Origin: Escherichia coli
GTDB lineage: Bacteria; Pseudomonadota; Gammaproteobacteria; Enterobacterales; Enterobacteriaceae
DNA length: 64,000 nt
Reading direction: 5' to 3' (one strand)
Assembly: GCF_965641715.1 (NCBI RefSeq)
Contig: NZ_OZ282453.1
Positions within the stretch are counted from its first letter, which is position 1. Each line of letters opens with the position of its first letter. Under the pieces are notes generated by a model that had not been told where the DNA came from, did no database searches, and saw nothing but the letters and a program-made list of their open reading frames with translations. This document shows, in pieces, positions 1-50,265 of this stretch. A program made the translations under genes and the position numbers.

Positions 1-185
1 CAGATTAATGTTAAGCGTCTTGCAGGACGCGTAATGTTAACTGGGGCTTTTCTCTATCTGCCTTTGGTGTTCATGCCTGAGGCAGATAGCCTCAAGCACC
101 CGCAGCAATTCTACTTAAGTTAGATAAGCTTTTCTATGGTATTCTCTCAGCGTCCCGTAAATACAGTCTCGGCTCATCATTTTTA

Positions 186-3346: not shown

Positions 3347-3772
3347 TCAATGCACTGCCACAGCATTTCCTGCCGGGCCACCACGGTTCATCTGATTGAA
3401 ACCGGCGATTGCCACTGCGACAAAATCATCGGCGTCTCTCACCAGTCGCTCCCGCGTCTCCACCAGCTCCCGAAAATAAGCTGAACTGTGGCTACGCATT
3501 CTGGCCACCAGCAAAGGTGGCATTGCCTTTTCGATCGCTGGTAACAACGCCTGAATTTTTTCAACTGCATCAGGGGTGTCTTTCTCTACCCAGCGGAAAA
3601 TTTTCTGGGTATTGCGAGCCAGGGCTTCCGGATGGCTGTCGTCGTACAGTTCAGGAAACGTCATACCCAACTCAAAATAAGCCTGGGTTATTCCAGCTGC
3701 CGGAACTTTTTCGCCATCAGGACGCGCCCAGGCATTCATCGCCATGCGGATGTGTTCATGCTTGATTTTCAT
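3347..3772 (-). CDS. YdaT-like (CII-position) early regulator
   Basis: Translation from MKIKHEHI... resembles Rac prophage YdaT as remembered; strong RBS (AAGGGGGG); lies downstream of the Cro-like gene. Confidence 0.55.
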   Translation of the reverse strand: MKIKHEHIRMAMNAWARPDGEKVPAAGITQAYFELGMTFPELYDDSHPEALARNTQKIFRWVEKDTPDAVEKIQALLPAIEKAMPPLLVARMRSHSSAYFRELVETRERLVRDADDFVAVAIAGFNQMNRGGPAGNAVAVH

Positions 3773-3998
3773 GAATCCCCCCTTGGTTAGAAGGCGGATT
3801 ATGATCAGAACCGGGAATGACAACCGTCGGTATGTGTAACTCATATTTGAGCGCCCCGGCAGTGACTGCCTGAATTAGCAACGCCCATTTCCACGGAACC
3901 TCTTCCCCCCACATGCTGACTGTGGTTTTTGACGTTCCTAGAGCTGCGGCTGTTTTAACAACTCCGCCAAAATAGCCTAATACTTCTGATTTTTTCAT
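3756..3998 (-). CDS. Cro-like HTH regulator (YdaS-like)
   Basis: 80-aa ORF from MKKSEVLGYFGG... with GGAG RBS; divergent from the CI-like repressor. Confidence 0.6.
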   Translation of the reverse strand: MKKSEVLGYFGGVVKTAAALGTSKTTVSMWGEEVPWKWALLIQAVTAGALKYELHIPTVVIPGSDHNPPSNQGGIHENQA

Positions 3999-4089
3999 GA
4001 GTCGCTCCATAAAACTGAACGCCAAAAGTTTAATAATCAAAACCAAAGAAAGTCAAGAAACAAAACCATCTGTGTTTTAAAATCAAAAC
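3999..4089. promoter_or_regulatory. Divergent immunity promoter/operator region (pR/pRM equivalent)
   Basis: 91-bp AT-rich spacer between divergent cro-like and cI-like starts; contains inverted repeats AAACT-N10-AGTTT and AAAAC-N7-GTTTT. Confidence 0.5.
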
Positions 4090-4728
4090 ATGAGCAAGCA
4101 AACAATATCTGAACGCATAACCCAACGTATGCATGCGCTAAACCTGAAAGGCAAAGACCTTGTCAATGCCACTGGCGCATCAAAAGGCTCCGTAAGTCAA
4201 TGGATGAACGGTGGAGGAGCGCCGTCCTCGCGTTACATAAGTTCACTGGCAAAAATATTGAAAGTAAACGAAAATTGGCTTCTTAATGGAGGAGAGTTAA
4301 ATACAGGTGATTCGCTTGATCTATCTTTACCGCCGATAAAAACGGTTCCGCTACTATCACTTCAGCAGGCAGCAAGCTGGAGTGATTATATGAAAAATTC
4401 CTCAATAACCTCTTGTGTGCAGCTTGTCGGAGAAATCCCGGCCAATACCTTTGCAGTTGTTCTAGAGAGTGACAGTATGTCAACATCTGGTGGGGGAGTT
4501 TCCATCCCAAATGGTTCAACAGTTTTTGTTGATCCCGATCGAACCGTACAACCAGGAAATATTGTCCTTGCCTTACCCAAAGGGACCACAACACCTGTCA
4601 TTCGTAAACTGGAGATAGAAGGGCCGGATATTCTTTTAGTCCCCACGAATCCTCGCTACCCTTCAATTATGCTGGATGATCTATCTTGCATATTGGGCGT
4701 ATGCTTTAAAATTCAACAAGATATTTAA
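4090..4728 (+). CDS. CI-like prophage repressor (N-terminal HTH, C-terminal S24 LexA-like peptidase domain)
   Basis: 212-aa ORF with an HTH-like N-terminus (GASKGSVSQWMNGGGAPS) and a C-terminal region with the look of a LexA/CI autocleavage domain; divergent from the cro-like gene. Confidence 0.8.
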   Translation: MSKQTISERITQRMHALNLKGKDLVNATGASKGSVSQWMNGGGAPSSRYISSLAKILKVNENWLLNGGELNTGDSLDLSLPPIKTVPLLSLQQAASWSDYMKNSSITSCVQLVGEIPANTFAVVLESDSMSTSGGGVSIPNGSTVFVDPDRTVQPGNIVLALPKGTTTPVIRKLEIEGPDILLVPTNPRYPSIMLDDLSCILGVCFKIQQDI

Positions 4729-5159
4729 CCGACCTCATCTATTTGATTAACTGTATGCCATCGTGGTGATGGCTTAACAGCTGCCTGCTTAAAATGTTTT
4801 GATAAAAAAACATTGACCTGAAAAGTTCATTTTTCTAAACTTCATTCATTCCCTCTCCCCACCCCACAGAATGCAGGGCAATACTTCGAGTTACCAGGCA
4901 GTGGTCAGGGGTTAAGTAGCCAGCCTGAGGCGTAAGAACATGACGGCAGGGTCCAACTTTAATAACTATGCAGCAGGTTTTTGTTCCGCTACCCCGGCGT
5001 TAAGGGGAAACAGAGGATTTCTCAGTGGGCGAAGTCAAACATCAGAATGGAAGGCATCACGGGATCGGCAAAGAAGCAGCAATGGCGCTTTATATTGACA
5101 TCAGCGCCATTGCCGGACAGGTAAGAGTTATCAGAGCGGTAACTAAGCGGTATGCGTCT

Positions 5160-5360
5160 TTATTTCAGAAAGTCTCTGGTGAGTGCACCGAAGATATTGT
5201 CAACGATTTCGTCATCGAACTGCGAGGACTCATCTTCAGTTACAAGGTGACCACAATTTTTGCAGATGGCTCCCGCGAAACTGTCAGAGCCCTGCGGCTT
5301 AAAGGATGTGTCAAAGACTTCGCCACCACATTCTGGGCAAGAAAACTTGATTGTATTCAT
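5160..5360 (-). CDS. Small zinc-ribbon protein (66 aa)
   Basis: CPECGG ... CKNCG motif pair; AGGAAA RBS 8 nt upstream of ATG; antisense to a 118-aa plus-strand ORF, so the coding strand is not settled. Confidence 0.45.
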   Translation of the reverse strand: MNTIKFSCPECGGEVFDTSFKPQGSDSFAGAICKNCGHLVTEDESSQFDDEIVDNIFGALTRDFLK

Positions 5361-5452
5361 AACCAATTTCCTCTCGAGTAACAGACCCCTCAGAGGATAC
5401 CACCTCGCCTGACGTGGTTAAAAGCAGGCAATGCGAACCACAAGGAGCTGAC

Positions 5453-5671
5453 ATGCAGAAACGAGAACCTGTCATCATCGCGCCAGACTATACCGATGAT
5501 GAACTTTATGAGTGGATGCGCCAGAAAATTAATGCAGCGCAGGATCTGAAATGGGCTAATGAAGCCAGGGCTAAGCAGGCTGAAAATCTGTTCTCTCTGG
5601 AGCAGGATATCACCAATCTGGAAAAAGCAGCGGCATTAAGCATTGCCAGAATGATTACATACCCACGTTAA
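5453..5671 (+). CDS. Small phage protein (72 aa)
   Basis: AAGGAG RBS 7 nt upstream of ATG (MQKREPVIIAPDY...). Confidence 0.4.
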   Translation: MQKREPVIIAPDYTDDELYEWMRQKINAAQDLKWANEARAKQAENLFSLEQDITNLEKAAALSIARMITYPR

Positions 5672-5693
5672 TAGCTAACCAACGAGGCTAATA

Positions 5694-6101
5694 ATGGAAT
5701 TTAAAGATTTACCAAAAGAAATCCAGACAATTGCTGCAACGACTCTCGGTGATAGTCTGGTGAAAATTGACCCGGCATACACCAAAAAAGAAACCATCGA
5801 TAATATGGTTCGTAATGTGCGCAATGCTTTTTCTGGGCTATATGGTTCTGATAATCAAAAGCAGGAAAGCGATGTTAATGAACGGGTAATTTCTGTTTGC
5901 GTGAATGGCCATGTTCTTTCATCAATCAAAACAGAAACAGCGACAGTCTTCGATTGCCTTTGCATTGTACAGAGCCTTGTTGATGCCCTGTTTCGTTCAG
6001 TGAATTTAGAAAATGATGCAAATCTGCGAGGGCGCACAATAGCACATCCATATGCACATACTTTAGGCTCTGTGGATATCAAAGATCCCACAAATCTTTA
6101 A
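5694..6101 (+). CDS. Hypothetical phage accessory protein (135 aa)
   Basis: GAGG RBS; 3' end overlaps the convergent 77-aa gene by 23 nt. Confidence 0.5.
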   Translation: MEFKDLPKEIQTIAATTLGDSLVKIDPAYTKKETIDNMVRNVRNAFSGLYGSDNQKQESDVNERVISVCVNGHVLSSIKTETATVFDCLCIVQSLVDALFRSVNLENDANLRGRTIAHPYAHTLGSVDIKDPTNL

Positions 6102-6312
6102 TGAAATAGTTAACGCGAATTGTACTTGCTCTTTCAGTTGCTTTCAGAATACGCGTTGAAACTGCTGGCGGTAATTTGGTATTCCATTTATTAAAATCAT
6201 GCCCGGGGAAGTACTCTTCGAAAATACTTTTAACTGCAGACTCGCCTATTGAAATGCTGCTTACCATGCGATTTTGATAAAGGCATTTAGCAATAAGAGT
6301 TGATTTTAACAT
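6079..6312 (-). CDS. Hypothetical small protein (77 aa), convergent with the early-left genes
   Basis: AGGAGG RBS immediately upstream of ATG. Confidence 0.4.
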   Translation of the reverse strand: MLKSTLIAKCLYQNRMVSSISIGESAVKSIFEEYFPGHDFNKWNTKLPPAVSTRILKATERASTIRVNYFIKDLWDL

Positions 6313-6803
6313 TCACCCTCCTGAGGGTTGGTAATTAAGGAGTTCTCCACGGGTGAGGTGGAGTGCGTGCGCCGGACACGGGTGAACATCCGGCACTGAC
6401 AGTTTACTGAAAGGATATTTCCCTGAAAAGTCAGACCATAACGCGAAAGCGCACGGCGAGGTAGCTGGTTCATAGATAGCCTGTCGTTAAATTTTCGTCG
6501 ACCGTGCGCTTCCGGTTGTGGCAACCCGCGAAATGGCGCGGCGGTAAGTATGGCGGGGTTATTCCTTCCCCGTTGAGGACACCGGGTTGTCAGGTTGACC
6601 ATACGCTTAAGTGACAACCCCGCTGCAACGCCCTCTGTTATCAATTTTCTGGTGACGTTTGGCGGTATCAGTTTTACTCCGTGACTGCTCTGCCGCCCTT
6701 TTTAAAGTGAATTTTGTGATGCGGTGAATGCGGCTAAGCGCACGCGGAACAGTTAAAACCAAAAACAGTGTTATGGGTGGATTCTCTGTATCCGGCGTTA
6801 ATT

Positions 6804-6817
6804 GTTAACTGGTTAAC
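6804..6817. promoter_or_regulatory. Palindromic GTTAAC-N2-GTTAAC site with a third GTTAA half-site adjacent (operator candidate)
   Basis: Read directly: cgTTAAttGTTAACtgGTTAACg, followed by a CCTGG-N5-CCAGG inverted repeat; ~60 bp upstream of the 62-aa gene start. Confidence 0.35.
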
Positions 6818-6872
6818 GTCACCTGGAGGCACCAGGCACTGCATCACAAAATTCATTGTTGAGGACGCGATA

Positions 6873-7061
6873 ATGAAAACGTTATTACCAAACGTTAATA
6901 CGTCTGAAGGTTGTTTTGAAATTGGTGTCACTATCAGTAACCCTGTATTTACTGAAGATGCCATTAACAAGAGAAAACAAGAACGGGAGCTATTAAATAA
7001 AATATGCATTGTTTCAATGCTGGCTCGTTTACGTCTGATGCCAAAAGGATGTGCACAATGA
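6873..7061 (+). CDS. Small protein (62 aa) with hydrophobic C-terminus
   Basis: GAGGA RBS; stop overlaps the next gene start (ATGA). Confidence 0.4.
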   Translation: MKTLLPNVNTSEGCFEIGVTISNPVFTEDAINKRKQERELLNKICIVSMLARLRLMPKGCAQ

Positions 7062-7249
7062 ATTCAGCATTTGCGCTTGTTCTGACAGTTTTTCTTGTTT
7101 CCGGAGAGCCAGTTGATATTGCAGTCAGTGTTCACAGGACAATGCAGGAGTGTATGACTGCAGCAACCGAACAGAAAATTCCCGGTAACTGTTACCCGGT
7201 CGATAAAGTTATTCACCAGGATAATATCGAAATCCCGGCAGGTCTTTAA
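7058..7249 (+). CDS. Small protein (63 aa) with N-terminal signal/TM segment
   Basis: AAGGA RBS; N-terminal hydrophobic stretch AFALVLTVFLVSG; translationally coupled to the preceding gene. Confidence 0.4.
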   Translation: MNSAFALVLTVFLVSGEPVDIAVSVHRTMQECMTAATEQKIPGNCYPVDKVIHQDNIEIPAGL

Positions 7250-7342
7250 AACAGTTCCGTAATAAATATCCGGTTTCATTCTTATATGCCAGCAATGGCA
7301 GGGATTTGTTCATCCTTAAATCTGTCATGAGGTTAAAACAAA

Positions 7343-48037: not shown

Positions 48038-48622
48038 ATGCCTAAACTTATTTTAGCCTCCACCTCGCCCTGGCGTCGCGCTCTTCTGGAAAAACTGCAA
48101 ATCTCTTTTGAATGTGCAGCACCAGAGGTCGACGAAACCCCACGCAGCGACGAATCACCGCGACAGTTGGTGCTTCGACTGGCACAAGAAAAAGCGCAAT
48201 CTCTGGCGTCACGTTATCCGGATCATTTAATTATTGGTTCAGACCAGGTATGTGTTCTTGATGGCGAAATCACCGGTAAACCGTTAATGGAAGAAAATGC
48301 CCGTCTGCAATTACGCAAAGCCAGCGGCAATATCGTCACCTTCTATACTGGACTGGCGTTGTTTAATTCGGCGAATGGGCATCTACAAACAGAAGTGGAG
48401 CCTTTTGACGTCCATTTCCGTCACCTGAGCGAGGCGGAGATTGATAATTACGTGCGTAAAGAGCATCCCCTGCACTGCGCGGGTAGCTTTAAGAGTGAAG
48501 GATTTGGCATTACTCTGTTTGAGCGTTTAGAGGGGCGTGATCCTAACACGCTGGTTGGTTTACCGCTAATCGCGCTGTGTCAGATGTTACGTCGGGAAGG
48601 GAAAAACCCGCTGATGGGATAG
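48038..48622 (+). CDS. yceF: Maf-like nucleoside triphosphate pyrophosphatase YceF
   Basis: Start set at [14 protein letters not shown] (194 aa). Confidence 0.9.
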
Positions 48623-49899: not shown

Positions 49900-50265
49900 A
49901 GGCCGTTTCCGTGTCCATCCTTGTTAAAACAAGAAATTTTACGGAATAACCCATTTTGCCCGACCGATCATCCACGCAGCAATGGCGTAAGACGTATTGA
50001 TCTTTCAGGCAGTTAGCGGGCTGCGGGTTGCAGTCCTTACCGGTAGATGGAAATATTTCTGGAGAGTAATACCCAGTCTGTTTCTTTGATAATTGCGCTG
50101 TTTTTCCGCATGAAAAACGGGCAACCGACACTCTGCGCCTCTTTGAGCTGACGATAACCGTGAGGTTGGCGACGCGACTAGACACGAGGCCATCGGTTCA
50201 CACCCGGAAAGGCGTTACTTTGCCCGCAGCTTAGTCGTCAATGTAAGAATAATGAGTAAGTTACG
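49900..50265 (+). promoter_or_regulatory. rne 5' leader (long structured autoregulatory UTR)
   Basis: ~570-bp ORF-free region upstream of rne; the long rne leader is established knowledge for K-12, not re-derived here. Confidence 0.55.

What the first reader, a model, noticed from the sequence alone, without database searches (positions are those of the whole stretch)
4729..7342. Accessory gene block between the CI-like repressor and the RecE-like exonuclease (rexAB / early-left moron position)
This 2.6-kb stretch sits where lambda carries rexAB-N and the ral/sieB/kil/cIII genes, a classic slot for exclusion, defence and anti-defence cargo. It holds at least six small ORFs on both strands: a zinc-ribbon gene (-), 72-aa and 135-aa genes (+), a convergent 77-aa gene (-), and a translationally coupled 62-aa/63-aa pair (+), none of which I can assign to a family. 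There is no Arg-rich N-like antiterminator. The mixed strand arrangement (convergent pairs with overlapping 3' ends) is unusual for a simple early operon and suggests independently expressed cargo.
Basis: partly seen in the sequence, partly recalled or inferred. Interest (0 to 1): 0.7.

Follow-up and report, generated by a model that had tools for sequence, protein, structure and literature searches.

The report
Prophage dicBF early-left operon, mosaic
This stretch is the well-known early-left "dicBF" operon of a Qin/Rac-type lambdoid prophage of E. coli (DicF small RNA, the division inhibitor DicB, the lysis protein YdfD, and YdfC), so it is mostly ordinary; it also carries two small uncharacterised genes on the opposite strand, one of them in a conserved overlapping gene pair.

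Summary
The 72-aa gene is YdfC (70/72 identical to K-12). The 62/63-aa coupled pair is DicB (62/62) and YdfD (62/63). The zinc-ribbon gene is an ECs_2282-family protein.

The block lies downstream of a repressor-controlled PL-like promoter (4813-4841), so it is the early-left operon, not a rex-type slot. The dicF-dicB-ydfD module occurs in 4749 of 5426 complete E. coli genomes, often in several copies.

A discrete 634-bp cassette (5692-6325: 135-aa gene on +, 77-aa gene on -) is absent from K-12 and present in 676 genomes. The zinc-ribbon segment is in 818.

No PADLOC defence model matches. The only documented exclusion activity is DicB's block of ManYZ-dependent phages.

The 77-aa protein and the C-terminal domain of the 135-aa protein form a convergent pair with a 23-nt 3' overlap. 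This arrangement recurs in Serratia and Dickeya prophages, and its function is unknown.

Verdict: largely already known, low to moderate interest.

The parts
4795..4812 (.). Operator-like palindrome TGTTTT-N6-AAAACA abutting the -35 of the early-left promoter. Its twin lies at 4073-4090 in the cro/cI intergenic region.
   Evidence: There are exactly two perfect copies in 64 kb, plus one 1-mismatch match elsewhere. Expected by chance 0.3; none of 100 shuffles reached 3 matches.
4813..4841 (+). PL-like sigma-70 promoter (TTGACC-17-TAAACT), equivalent to dicBp of Qin.
   Evidence: consensus scan only. It is adjacent to the operator. The mosaic boundary with the immunity module lies just downstream.
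4857..5010 (+). Highly conserved non-coding 5' leader of the early-left transcript. Its 5' end is C-rich; its 3' end carries a CCCC/GGGG hairpin over a Shine-Dalgarno-like AAGGGG.
   Evidence: about 4000 genomes. (nearly invariant in 120 IMG/VR loci while the flanks differ). (present in Rac). (no stable fold). (no Rfam hit).
5160..5360 (-). ECs_2282-family putative zinc-binding protein (66 aa, CPEC...CKNC). It is antisense to the early-left operon and its function is unknown.
   Evidence: NF047912, 57.2 bits against cutoff 37. (PGAP annotation). (substitutions fall on its third codon positions). (60-70% identical homologues in Citrobacter, Klebsiella and Enterobacter; in the Citrobacter freundii-type loci fetched the gene has the same antisense placement next to an S24 repressor).
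5025..5381 (+). 118-aa shadow ORF antisense to the zinc-ribbon gene. It is called as a gene in some records (phrog_21318) but is probably not a selected protein.
5453..5671 (+). ydfC (72 aa), the first clearly translated gene of the operon here.
   Evidence: PGAP annotation. (phrog_1744). (70/72 identical to K-12 YdfC)..
5692..6325 (.). 634-bp two-gene cassette, absent from K-12 Qin. It comprises exactly the 135-aa ORF, the 77-aa ORF and the latter's Shine-Dalgarno sequence.
   Evidence: K-12 is contiguous across the junction. (676 of 5426 genomes).
5694..6101 (+). 135-aa protein of unknown function (phrog_1363). The N-terminal ~58 aa is a shared module fused to many different C-termini. The C-terminal ~75 aa (phrog_23433) is the conserved partner of the 77-aa protein.
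   Evidence: No Pfam hit. AF2 model is poor (pLDDT 49).
6079..6312 (-). 77-aa protein of unknown function (phrog_10348). It is convergent with the 135-aa gene, with a 23-nt 3' overlap. The predicted five-helix bundle has no solved relative.
   Evidence: (pLDDT 96.7). (fold searches). (157 clusters). (3 variable sites in 211 nt, all third codon positions).
6326..6646 (+). Untranslated DicF precursor leader. A predicted 23-bp imperfect duplex (6436-6461 with 6496-6521) spans the expected RNase III cut that gives the 190-nt DicF species (5' end about 6510).
   Evidence: 99.1% identical to K-12. (fold, z = -2.56). PMC10448788 for RNase III and RNase E processing.
6647..6699 (+). DicF small RNA with its own terminator hairpin and U-run.
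   Evidence: RF00039, 76.7 bits against gathering score 48. (identical to K-12 dicF)..
6873..7061 (+). dicB (62 aa): MinC-dependent cell-division inhibitor and inhibitor of ManYZ.
   Evidence: NF049927, 132.8 bits against cutoff 100. (62/62 identical to K-12). PMC6832061.
7058..7249 (+). ydfD (63 aa, DUF1482): lysis protein, translationally coupled to dicB by an ATGA overlap.
   Evidence: (phrog_1092). (62/63 identical to K-12). PMC8835842 (title and abstract).
7343..9814 (+). Context: the 823-aa exonuclease that ends the block. It has a RecE-like middle region but a DEDD 3'-5' exonuclease C-terminal domain. The K-12 ydfE pseudogene corresponds to its N-terminus.

Best explanation
The block is the early-left (PL) operon of a Qin/Rac-type lambdoid prophage, that is, a full-length version of the dicBF operon studied in E. 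coli K-12.

Inferred from anatomy: the LexA/S24-type repressor (4090-4728) binds a TGTTTT-N6-AAAACA operator that abuts the promoter at 4813-4841. When repression is lifted, transcription runs rightward. It passes through a conserved untranslated leader, the antisense of the zinc-ribbon gene, ydfC, the 135-aa gene, and a 320-nt structured leader.

Shown for the near-identical K-12 sequence, not for this copy: RNase III and RNase E cut DicF out of the polycistronic RNA.
- DicF, with Hfq, represses ftsZ, manX, xylR and pykA mRNAs.
- DicB binds MinC, blocks Z-ring formation, and inhibits ManYZ. This also excludes lambda-like phages that need ManYZ for DNA entry.
- YdfD causes lysis and inhibits IspG.

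Read-through continues into the exonuclease, xis and int genes.

Around this conserved core the operon is a recombination mosaic. Two small genes, the ECs_2282 zinc-ribbon protein and the 77-aa protein, lie on the opposite strand. They are therefore probably transcribed on their own while PL is repressed, like sieB in Rac. Their functions are unknown.
For: Identity of the parts:
- DicF scores 76.7 bits (gathering score 48) and is identical to K-12.
- DicB scores 132.8 bits (cutoff 100) and is 62/62 identical. YdfD is 62/63 and YdfC 70/72.
- Window 6326-7500 is 99.1% identical to K-12 Qin.
- PGAP annotates close relatives as ydfC, dicB, ydfD and ECs_2282.

Regulation:
- The operator palindrome occurs only at the cro/cI region and at the promoter.
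- The predicted duplex lies at the position of the published RNase III cut (PMC10448788).

Functions: PMC10448788, PMC6832061, PMC8835842.

Ubiquity and mosaicism.

Antisense genes are real:
- Codon-position pattern of substitutions.
- Cross-genus homologues with the same orientation.
- Rac sieB is likewise antisense to kilR and recE.
Against: - Nothing was measured for this copy. The promoter, operator, processing and read-through are inferred from sequence and from K-12 work.
- The repressor differs from DicA (S24 type), and ydfA-ydfB are replaced, so induction signals may differ.
- No promoter could be found for either minus-strand gene by consensus scan.
- How transcription survives about 600 nt of untranslated leader and the DicF terminator to reach xis and int, without an N or put system, is unexplained.
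Confidence: 0.88

Rival explanations
1. The block is an anti-phage defence or anti-defence island. On this view the small ORFs are independent exclusion or defence cargo.
For: - The content varies between related prophages.
- The rex position of relatives L011 and L012 holds a RelBE toxin-antitoxin pair.
- DicB protects about 100-fold against lambda-like phages (PMC6832061).
- Two genes lie antisense to the operon.
Against: - No PADLOC model matches any ORF or the variant partners.
- The best-conserved parts are host-takeover and division-control genes expressed from PL.
- DicB's exclusion is a side effect of its MinC/ManYZ activity and needs operon induction.
- Three ORFs have no functional data at all.
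Confidence: 0.15
2. The 77-aa gene and the C-terminal domain of the 135-aa protein form a two-component effector/antagonist module. The 77-aa protein would be made in the lysogen from the strand opposite PL. On induction, PL transcription would produce both the partner protein and a fully complementary antisense RNA, which together neutralise it. This would work like the P22 sieB/esc/sas arrangement (recalled from the literature, not tested here), but with unrelated proteins.
For: - The convergent arrangement with the same 23-nt overlap recurs in Serratia and Dickeya prophages.
- A 40%-identical 77-aa relative pairs with a 104-aa partner that carries the same EANASGRTI motif.
- The cassette moves as a unit.
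- The 77-aa protein is almost frozen while its partner varies.
- Rac sieB has the same antisense placement.
Against: - No promoter was found for the 77-aa gene.
- Distant family members sit in plasmid-like gene arrays without the partner, and one prophage lacks it.
- A 201-aa variant keeps the partner domain but continues past the overlap point into a different C-terminal extension. The 77-aa gene is therefore presumably absent there; no such locus was inspected.
- The 77-aa model is a soluble helical bundle, unlike membrane-bound SieB.
- No interaction or toxicity data exist.
Confidence: 0.25
3. The minus-strand ORFs (zinc ribbon and 77 aa) are chance or decaying ORFs with no function.
For: No known domains beyond a generic zinc ribbon. 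No promoters were detected.
Against: - Substitutions are concentrated at their third codon positions.
- Homologues at 55-72% identity keep constant length across Enterobacterales.
- The AF2 model of the 77-aa protein is very confident.
- 157 clusters were found at 50% identity.
Confidence: 0.04

Closest known systems
dicBF operon of cryptic prophage Qin, E. coli K-12 (dicA | ydfA-ydfB-ydfC-dicF-dicB-ydfD-ydfE)
   Same: ydfC, the 320-nt leader, dicF, dicB, ydfD and the start of the exonuclease gene are 96.7-99.1% identical and in the same order. The position is the same, downstream of the repressor gene with a PL-like promoter.
   Different: - The repressor is a LexA/S24-type protein, not DicA.
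- ydfA-ydfB are replaced by an antisense ECs_2282 zinc-ribbon gene.
- A 634-bp cassette (135-aa and 77-aa genes) is inserted between ydfC and the dicF leader.
- The exonuclease, xis and int genes are intact rather than pseudogenes. K-12 ydfE and intQ are disrupted, with IS2.
Early-left region of Rac prophage (racR | ydaF - sieB(-) - kilR - ydaE - racC - recE)
   Same: Both have the same conserved 150-nt leader after the promoter. Both have the same logic of a division inhibitor upstream of an exonuclease gene. Both carry a gene (sieB) antisense to the operon.
   Different: Rac uses KilR instead of DicF/DicB. It has no ydfC, no 135/77-aa cassette and no zinc-ribbon gene. Its RecE is a true exonuclease VIII.
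Lambda PL operon (N-ral-sieB-kil-cIII-gam-bet-exo-xis-int)
   Same: The position is the same, between the repressor and the recombination and integration genes. Both hold small host-takeover genes, including an FtsZ-directed division inhibitor (own knowledge for Kil).
   Different: There is no N protein or recognisable nut site and no cIII. No rexAB equivalent exists between the repressor gene and the promoter. Division control is by an sRNA plus a MinC-binding protein.
P22/lambda sieB-esc with the sas antisense RNA (own knowledge: Ranade and Poteete 1993)
   Same: A gene lies antisense inside the early-left operon, so PL transcription produces RNA complementary to it. This resembles the 77-aa and zinc-ribbon genes.
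   Different: The proteins are unrelated. The 77-aa protein is a soluble helical bundle, not a membrane protein. No antisense RNA processing has been shown here.

Membership tests
DicF RNA (Rfam RF00039) | Covariance-model score at or above the gathering threshold | tested here: met
   76.7 bits against 48, full length 1-52.
DicF RNA (Rfam RF00039) | Located in a long untranslated region between ydfC and dicB, with a terminator hairpin | tested here: met
   The sequence is identical to K-12 dicF.
DicF RNA (Rfam RF00039) | [quoted passage not shown] | not testable with these tools
   Published for K-12 (PMC10448788). Here there is only the predicted duplex at the expected cut site.
DicB (NCBIfam NF049927) | HMM score above the curated cutoff, full length | tested here: met
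   132.8 bits against 100, residues 1-62 of 62. 62/62 identical to K-12 DicB.
DicB (NCBIfam NF049927) | MinC-dependent division block and ManYZ inhibition | not testable with these tools
   Inferred from sequence identity to the tested K-12 protein (PMC6832061).
YdfD / DUF1482 lysis protein | Sequence identity to K-12 YdfD and coupling to dicB | tested here: met
   62/63 identical. ATGA overlap with dicB. phrog_1092.
YdfC | Sequence identity to K-12 YdfC | tested here: met
   70/72 identical. PGAP name in relatives.
ECs_2282 putative zinc-binding protein (NF047912) | HMM score above the cutoff and two CxxC pairs | tested here: met
   57.2 bits against 37. CPEC and CKNC motifs are present.
Lambda-type N/nut antitermination | Small Arg-rich N protein as the first gene after PL | tested here: not met
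   The ORFs between 4848 and 5452 on the plus strand (52, 47 and 118 aa) have no N-like arginine-rich N-terminus by inspection. Only the 118-aa ORF was scanned against PHROGs, NCBIfam and PADLOC, with no N-family hit.
HK022 put antiterminator RNA | Conserved put core sequence and two stable stem-loops just downstream of PL | tested here: not met
   Degenerate putL/putR core patterns give 0 matches with up to 3 mismatches in 64 kb. The leader folds no better than shuffles, z = +0.98.
Known anti-phage defence systems (PADLOC-DB v2) | Any component HMM match | tested here: not met
   No significant match for any ORF of the block or for variant partners. There are only weak zinc-ribbon noise hits at E about 0.002.
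Type II toxin-antitoxin pair (considered for the 135/77-aa cassette) | Co-directional two-gene operon with a recognisable toxin or antitoxin fold | tested here: not met
RecE / exonuclease VIII (neighbouring 823-aa gene) | Equivalog HMM above the cutoff, including the C-terminal nuclease | tested here: not met
   275 bits against a cutoff of 1269, and only residues 237-625 align. The C-terminus is a DEDD Rv2179c-like 3'-5' exonuclease, PF16473, E 3e-67.

The most novel reading that the evidence does not exclude
The 634-bp cassette encodes a previously undescribed two-protein module: the 77-aa five-helix protein (phrog_10348) and an 'EANASGRTI' partner domain (phrog_23433). They are kept as convergent genes with overlapping 3' ends in lambdoid prophages of several Enterobacterales genera. 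It would act as a lysogen-expressed effector with a lytic-phase antagonist, for example in exclusion or host control. In addition, the nearly invariant 150-nt PL leader could be a new cis-acting element that controls Rho termination or processivity in N-less lambdoid phages.
Probability: 0.2. Interest if true: 0.6.

Novelty: already known. Interest (0 to 1): 0.27.

Why it matters
The main value of this result is corrective. The 'unassignable accessory block' is the dicBF operon, one of the best-studied cryptic-prophage loci. It holds a classic sRNA and a division inhibitor that also excludes lambda-like phages.

It matters modestly in three ways:
1. This copy sits in what looks like a complete early-left arm, with an SOS-type repressor and intact exonuclease, xis and int genes. 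It shows the ancestral context of the K-12 remnant.
2. The comparison defines precise mosaic joints and shows which parts are core (dicF-dicB-ydfD, about 88% of E. coli genomes) and which are cargo (12-15%).
3. It singles out three small, conserved, completely uncharacterised elements that could be tested cheaply: the 77-aa/partner pair, the antisense ECs_2282 protein and the invariant leader.

Tried and rejected
- **HK022-type put RNA** as the reason for the missing N protein. I read putL and putR from NC_002166 and PMC9378689. Degenerate core patterns gave no match, and the leader is not stably folded. Rejected.
- **Rho terminator trac of Rac** as the identity of the conserved leader. The published terminator lies inside racR, transcribed from PRM (PMC4150792), not in this leader. 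The rut-like idea therefore remains only a hypothesis.
- **The (+) 118-aa ORF 5025-5381 (phrog_21318) as a real gene.** Rejected in favour of the minus-strand zinc-ribbon gene on codon-position evidence.
- **Structure of the 135-aa protein.** The model was too poor (pLDDT 49) to search with.
- **Promoters for the minus-strand genes.** Consensus scans in E. coli, Serratia and Dickeya found nothing convincing.
- **Covariation analysis of the leader.** Not attempted, because the copies are almost invariant.
- **STnc100.** The weak match at 6696-6905 (34.8 bits, below the gathering score of 47) is treated as a distant resemblance of the dicB 5' UTR, not as a hit.
- **Literature search** for ECs_2282 or the WP accessions found nothing.
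Full report
**Context.** The first 11.3 kb of the window are the right arm of a lambdoid prophage. From left to right it carries:
- a replisome-organizer gene, a ydaT-like gene and a cro-like gene on the minus strand;
- a 212-aa HTH plus S24-peptidase repressor (4090-4728, +);
- the block in question (4729-7342);
- an 823-aa exonuclease gene (7343-9814);
- xis and int (to 11232).

E. coli chromosomal genes follow: potC and potD from 12292, SraB at 47876, and the rne leader at 49905.

**Checking the observation.**
- The 135-aa (+) and 77-aa (-) genes converge and share 23 nt (6079-6101).
- The 62-aa and 63-aa genes overlap by ATGA.
- The statement that none can be assigned to a family does not hold.

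NCBIfam places the zinc-ribbon protein in the ECs_2282 family (57.2 bits, cutoff 37). It places the 62-aa protein in the DicB family (132.8 bits, cutoff 100). Against the annotated K-12 Qin locus:
- DicB is 62/62 identical, YdfD 62/63 and YdfC 70/72.
- The 53-nt dicF gene is identical.

An Rfam scan finds DicF at 6647-6698 with 76.7 bits against a gathering score of 48. Together they account for the 560 nt without a credible ORF between the 77-aa gene and dicB.

**What the block is.** Window 5453-5691 matches K-12 ydfC at 96.7%. Window 6326-7500 matches the K-12 leader, dicF, dicB, ydfD and the start of ydfE at 99.1%. The block is therefore a copy of the dicBF operon.

A sigma-70-like promoter (TTGACC-17-TAAACT, 4813-4841) is immediately preceded by the palindrome TGTTTTGATAAAAAAACA (4795-4812).
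- The only other perfect TGTTTT-N6-AAAACA in 64 kb lies in the cro/cI intergenic region (4073-4090).
- Chance expectation is 0.3.

I read these as OL and OR operators of the S24 repressor, and the promoter as PL, the equivalent of dicBp. The repressor gene ends at 4728, so the lambda rexAB slot is only 66 bp here and is empty.

In K-12, the operon transcript starts upstream of ydfA, and RNase III and RNase E cut it into 190-nt and 53-nt DicF species (PMC10448788). Folding window 6326-6712 gives:
- an energy below shuffles (z = -2.56);
- a 23-bp imperfect duplex, 6436-6461 with 6496-6521, that spans the expected 5' end of the 190-nt species (about 6510);
- a second long pairing between 6530-6559 and the DicF 3' hairpin.

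Published functions:
- DicF represses ftsZ, manX, xylR and pykA.
- DicB recruits MinC to block division. It also inhibits ManYZ, which makes cells about 100-fold more resistant to lambda-like phages (PMC10448788; PMC6832061).
- YdfD is a lysis protein that inhibits IspG (PMC8835842).

These functions are shown for K-12 and inferred here from near-identity.

**How common and how variable.** Counts are from 5426 complete E. coli genomes.

| Segment | Genomes with a match | Genomes with a place covering at least 80% | Source |
|---|---|---|---|
| dicF-dicB-ydfD (6326-7342) | 4749 | 3815 | |
| Cassette 5692-6325 | 676 | 645 | |
| Zinc-ribbon segment 4729-5452 | 4058 | 818 | |
| Whole 2.6-kb arrangement | 4762 | 361 | |

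- The dicF-dicB-ydfD segment has a median of 2 copies and up to 10 per genome.
- For the zinc-ribbon segment, a 154-bp non-coding sub-block is what occurs in about 4000 genomes.

Annotated relatives show the mosaic directly:
- The repressor may be S24-type or DicA-like.
- A RelB/RelE pair can sit in the rex position.
- The first genes after the leader may be ydfA-ydfB or the antisense zinc-ribbon gene.
- The 135/77-aa cassette may be present or absent.

I classified 120 IMG/VR loci that share the leader core.
- About 35 were Rac-like (ydaF-sieB(-)-kilR-ydaE-racC).
- About 20 were Qin-like (ydfA-B-C-dicF-dicB-ydfD).
- About 25 carried the N-terminal module of the 135-aa protein fused to other C-termini.
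- Three carried the zinc-ribbon gene, and one carried the complete cassette.

Phage Evi combines the zinc-ribbon region, ydfC and the cassette with Kil instead of DicF/DicB. What varies is a few small modules around a very conserved core.

**The zinc-ribbon gene.**
- A 118-aa ORF on the plus strand overlaps it and is called as a gene in some records (phrog_21318; O157:H7).
- Among seven loci, 7 of the 8 variable sites in the overlap fall on third codon positions of the minus-strand ORF and first positions of the plus ORF. The zinc-ribbon frame is the selected one.
- Homologues at 60-70% identity occur in Citrobacter, Klebsiella and Enterobacter.
- In the Citrobacter freundii-type loci that I fetched, the homologue is again antisense to the early-left direction, next to an S24 repressor.
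- Pfam gives only generic zinc-ribbon similarities. Function is unknown.

**The 634-bp cassette.** K-12 is contiguous across the joint (...GCTAA|GGTTAGTAATTAAGGAG...). The extra DNA in the window is exactly the 135-aa ORF, the 77-aa ORF and the latter's Shine-Dalgarno sequence.

*The 77-aa protein:*
- It has homologues of constant length (55-72% identity) in Klebsiella, Serratia, Dickeya, Xenorhabdus, Yersinia, Morganella and Salmonella.
- A profile search of 1.84 billion representatives finds 157 clusters, almost all 74-80 aa.
- AlphaFold gives a very confident five-helix bundle (pLDDT 96.7).

*The 135-aa protein:*
- It is modular. Residues 1-58 recur as the N-terminus of proteins with several unrelated C-termini.
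- Residues about 62-135 are homologous to stand-alone 77-79-aa proteins of Serratia and Dickeya prophages.

*Conservation of the pairing:*
- In those Serratia and Dickeya prophages, the small protein and the 77-aa homologue are again convergent with the same 23-nt overlap. They sit directly after the repressor gene.
- A much more distant 77-aa relative is paired, again convergently, with a 104-aa protein carrying the same ...LE.EANASGRTI...FETFGS motif.

*Selection within E. coli:*
- The 77-aa coding region has 3 variable sites in 211 nt, all at third positions. The protein is identical in eight loci.
- The 135-aa region has 44 variable sites in 385 nt.

*Limits on the association:*
- It is not obligatory. 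Distant members lie in plasmid-like arrays without the partner.
- One prophage lacks it.
- A 201-aa variant keeps the partner domain but extends past the overlap point. The 77-aa gene is therefore presumably absent there, though I did not inspect such a locus.

*Annotation and expression:*
- Neither protein matches Pfam, NCBIfam or PADLOC. The PHROG families are of unknown function.
- I could not find a promoter for the 77-aa gene.

*Working hypothesis (about 25% confidence).* The 77-aa protein is made in the lysogen from the strand opposite PL, as sieB is in Rac. PL transcription on induction then supplies both a complementary RNA and an antagonist protein.

**Defence.** No ORF of the block, and none of the variant partner proteins, matches a PADLOC model. 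The only supported exclusion function is the published one of DicB.

**Antitermination.**
- There is no N-like protein.
- I tested whether an HK022-type put RNA replaces it. The conserved put core is absent from the whole window.
- The leader after the promoter folds no better than shuffled sequence.
- That leader (about 4857-5010) is nevertheless striking. It is nearly invariant across prophages whose promoter and operator just upstream, and whose genes downstream, differ. It is also present in Rac.
- Its first 22 nt are C-rich and G-poor, which suggests a Rho loading site.
- The published Rac terminator trac lies elsewhere, inside racR (PMC4150792), so this remains an untested idea.

**Neighbouring 'RecE-like' gene.**
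- Only residues 237-625 resemble RecE's non-catalytic part (275 bits against a cutoff of 1269).
- The C-terminal domain is a DEDD 3'-5' exonuclease of the Rv2179c type (PF16473, E 3e-67).
- The K-12 ydfE pseudogene corresponds to its N-terminus.

**Verdict.**
- The block is essentially the already known dicBF early-left operon.
- The residual novelty lies in three small conserved elements without any functional data: the 77-aa/partner pair, the antisense ECs_2282 protein and the invariant leader.
- Interest is low to moderate.

Noticed in passing
window 4857-5010 (+): A non-coding leader of about 150 nt sits right after the PL-like promoter. It is nearly invariant in 120 IMG/VR prophage loci and about 4000 E. 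coli genomes, although the promoter and operator upstream and the genes downstream differ. It is also present in Rac between racR and ydaF. Its 5' end is C-rich, it has no stable fold, and it has no Rfam or put match. It could be a Rho loading site or another cis element.
   Followed up: partly
window 1-101 (-): A sok antitoxin RNA (RF01794, 63.6 bits, cut by the window edge) indicates a hok/sok-type type I toxin-antitoxin locus in the prophage.
   Followed up: no
window 7343-9814 (+): The 'RecE-like' protein has a DEDD 3'-5' exonuclease (Rv2179c-like, PF16473) C-terminal domain instead of RecE's nuclease. Only its middle part resembles RecE. The K-12 ydfE pseudogene corresponds to its N-terminus.
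   Followed up: partly
window 4073-4090 and 4795-4812: The perfect palindrome TGTTTT-N6-AAAACA occurs only at these two places in 64 kb: in the cro/cI intergenic region and abutting the PL-like promoter. These are likely operators of the S24-type repressor.
   Followed up: partly
L011 911-1384 and L012 910-1389 (related E. coli prophages): In relatives with a DicA-like repressor, the true rex position (between the repressor gene and the early-left promoter) holds a RelB/RelE toxin-antitoxin pair. In the window this slot is 66 bp and empty.
   Followed up: no
window 5694-5870 (N-terminal ~58 aa of the 135-aa protein): The MEFKDLPKEIQ...DNMVRNVRNAFSGLY module is fused to at least five unrelated C-terminal domains in other prophages (phrog_1363, 2151, 6937, 9419, 33007). 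It marks a recombination joint or a common adaptor domain.
   Followed up: partly
window 6696-6905 (+): The dicB 5' UTR gives a sub-threshold match to the Salmonella sRNA family STnc100 (34.8 bits against gathering score 47). This hints that STnc100 is the homologous region of Salmonella prophages.
   Followed up: no
window 47876-48044 (-) and 49905-50241 (+): SraB sRNA and the rne 5' UTR element, together with potC and potD at 12292-14129, identify the host as E. coli or a close relative and place the prophage next to the pot operon. No tRNA gene is present in the window.
   Followed up: no
L146 (Escherichia phage Evi, LR597642.1) 3714-5788: A sequenced phage record (Escherichia phage Evi) carries the zinc-ribbon region, ydfC and the 135/77-aa cassette followed by Kil rather than DicF/DicB. 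The cassette therefore recombines independently of the division-inhibitor module.
   Followed up: partly
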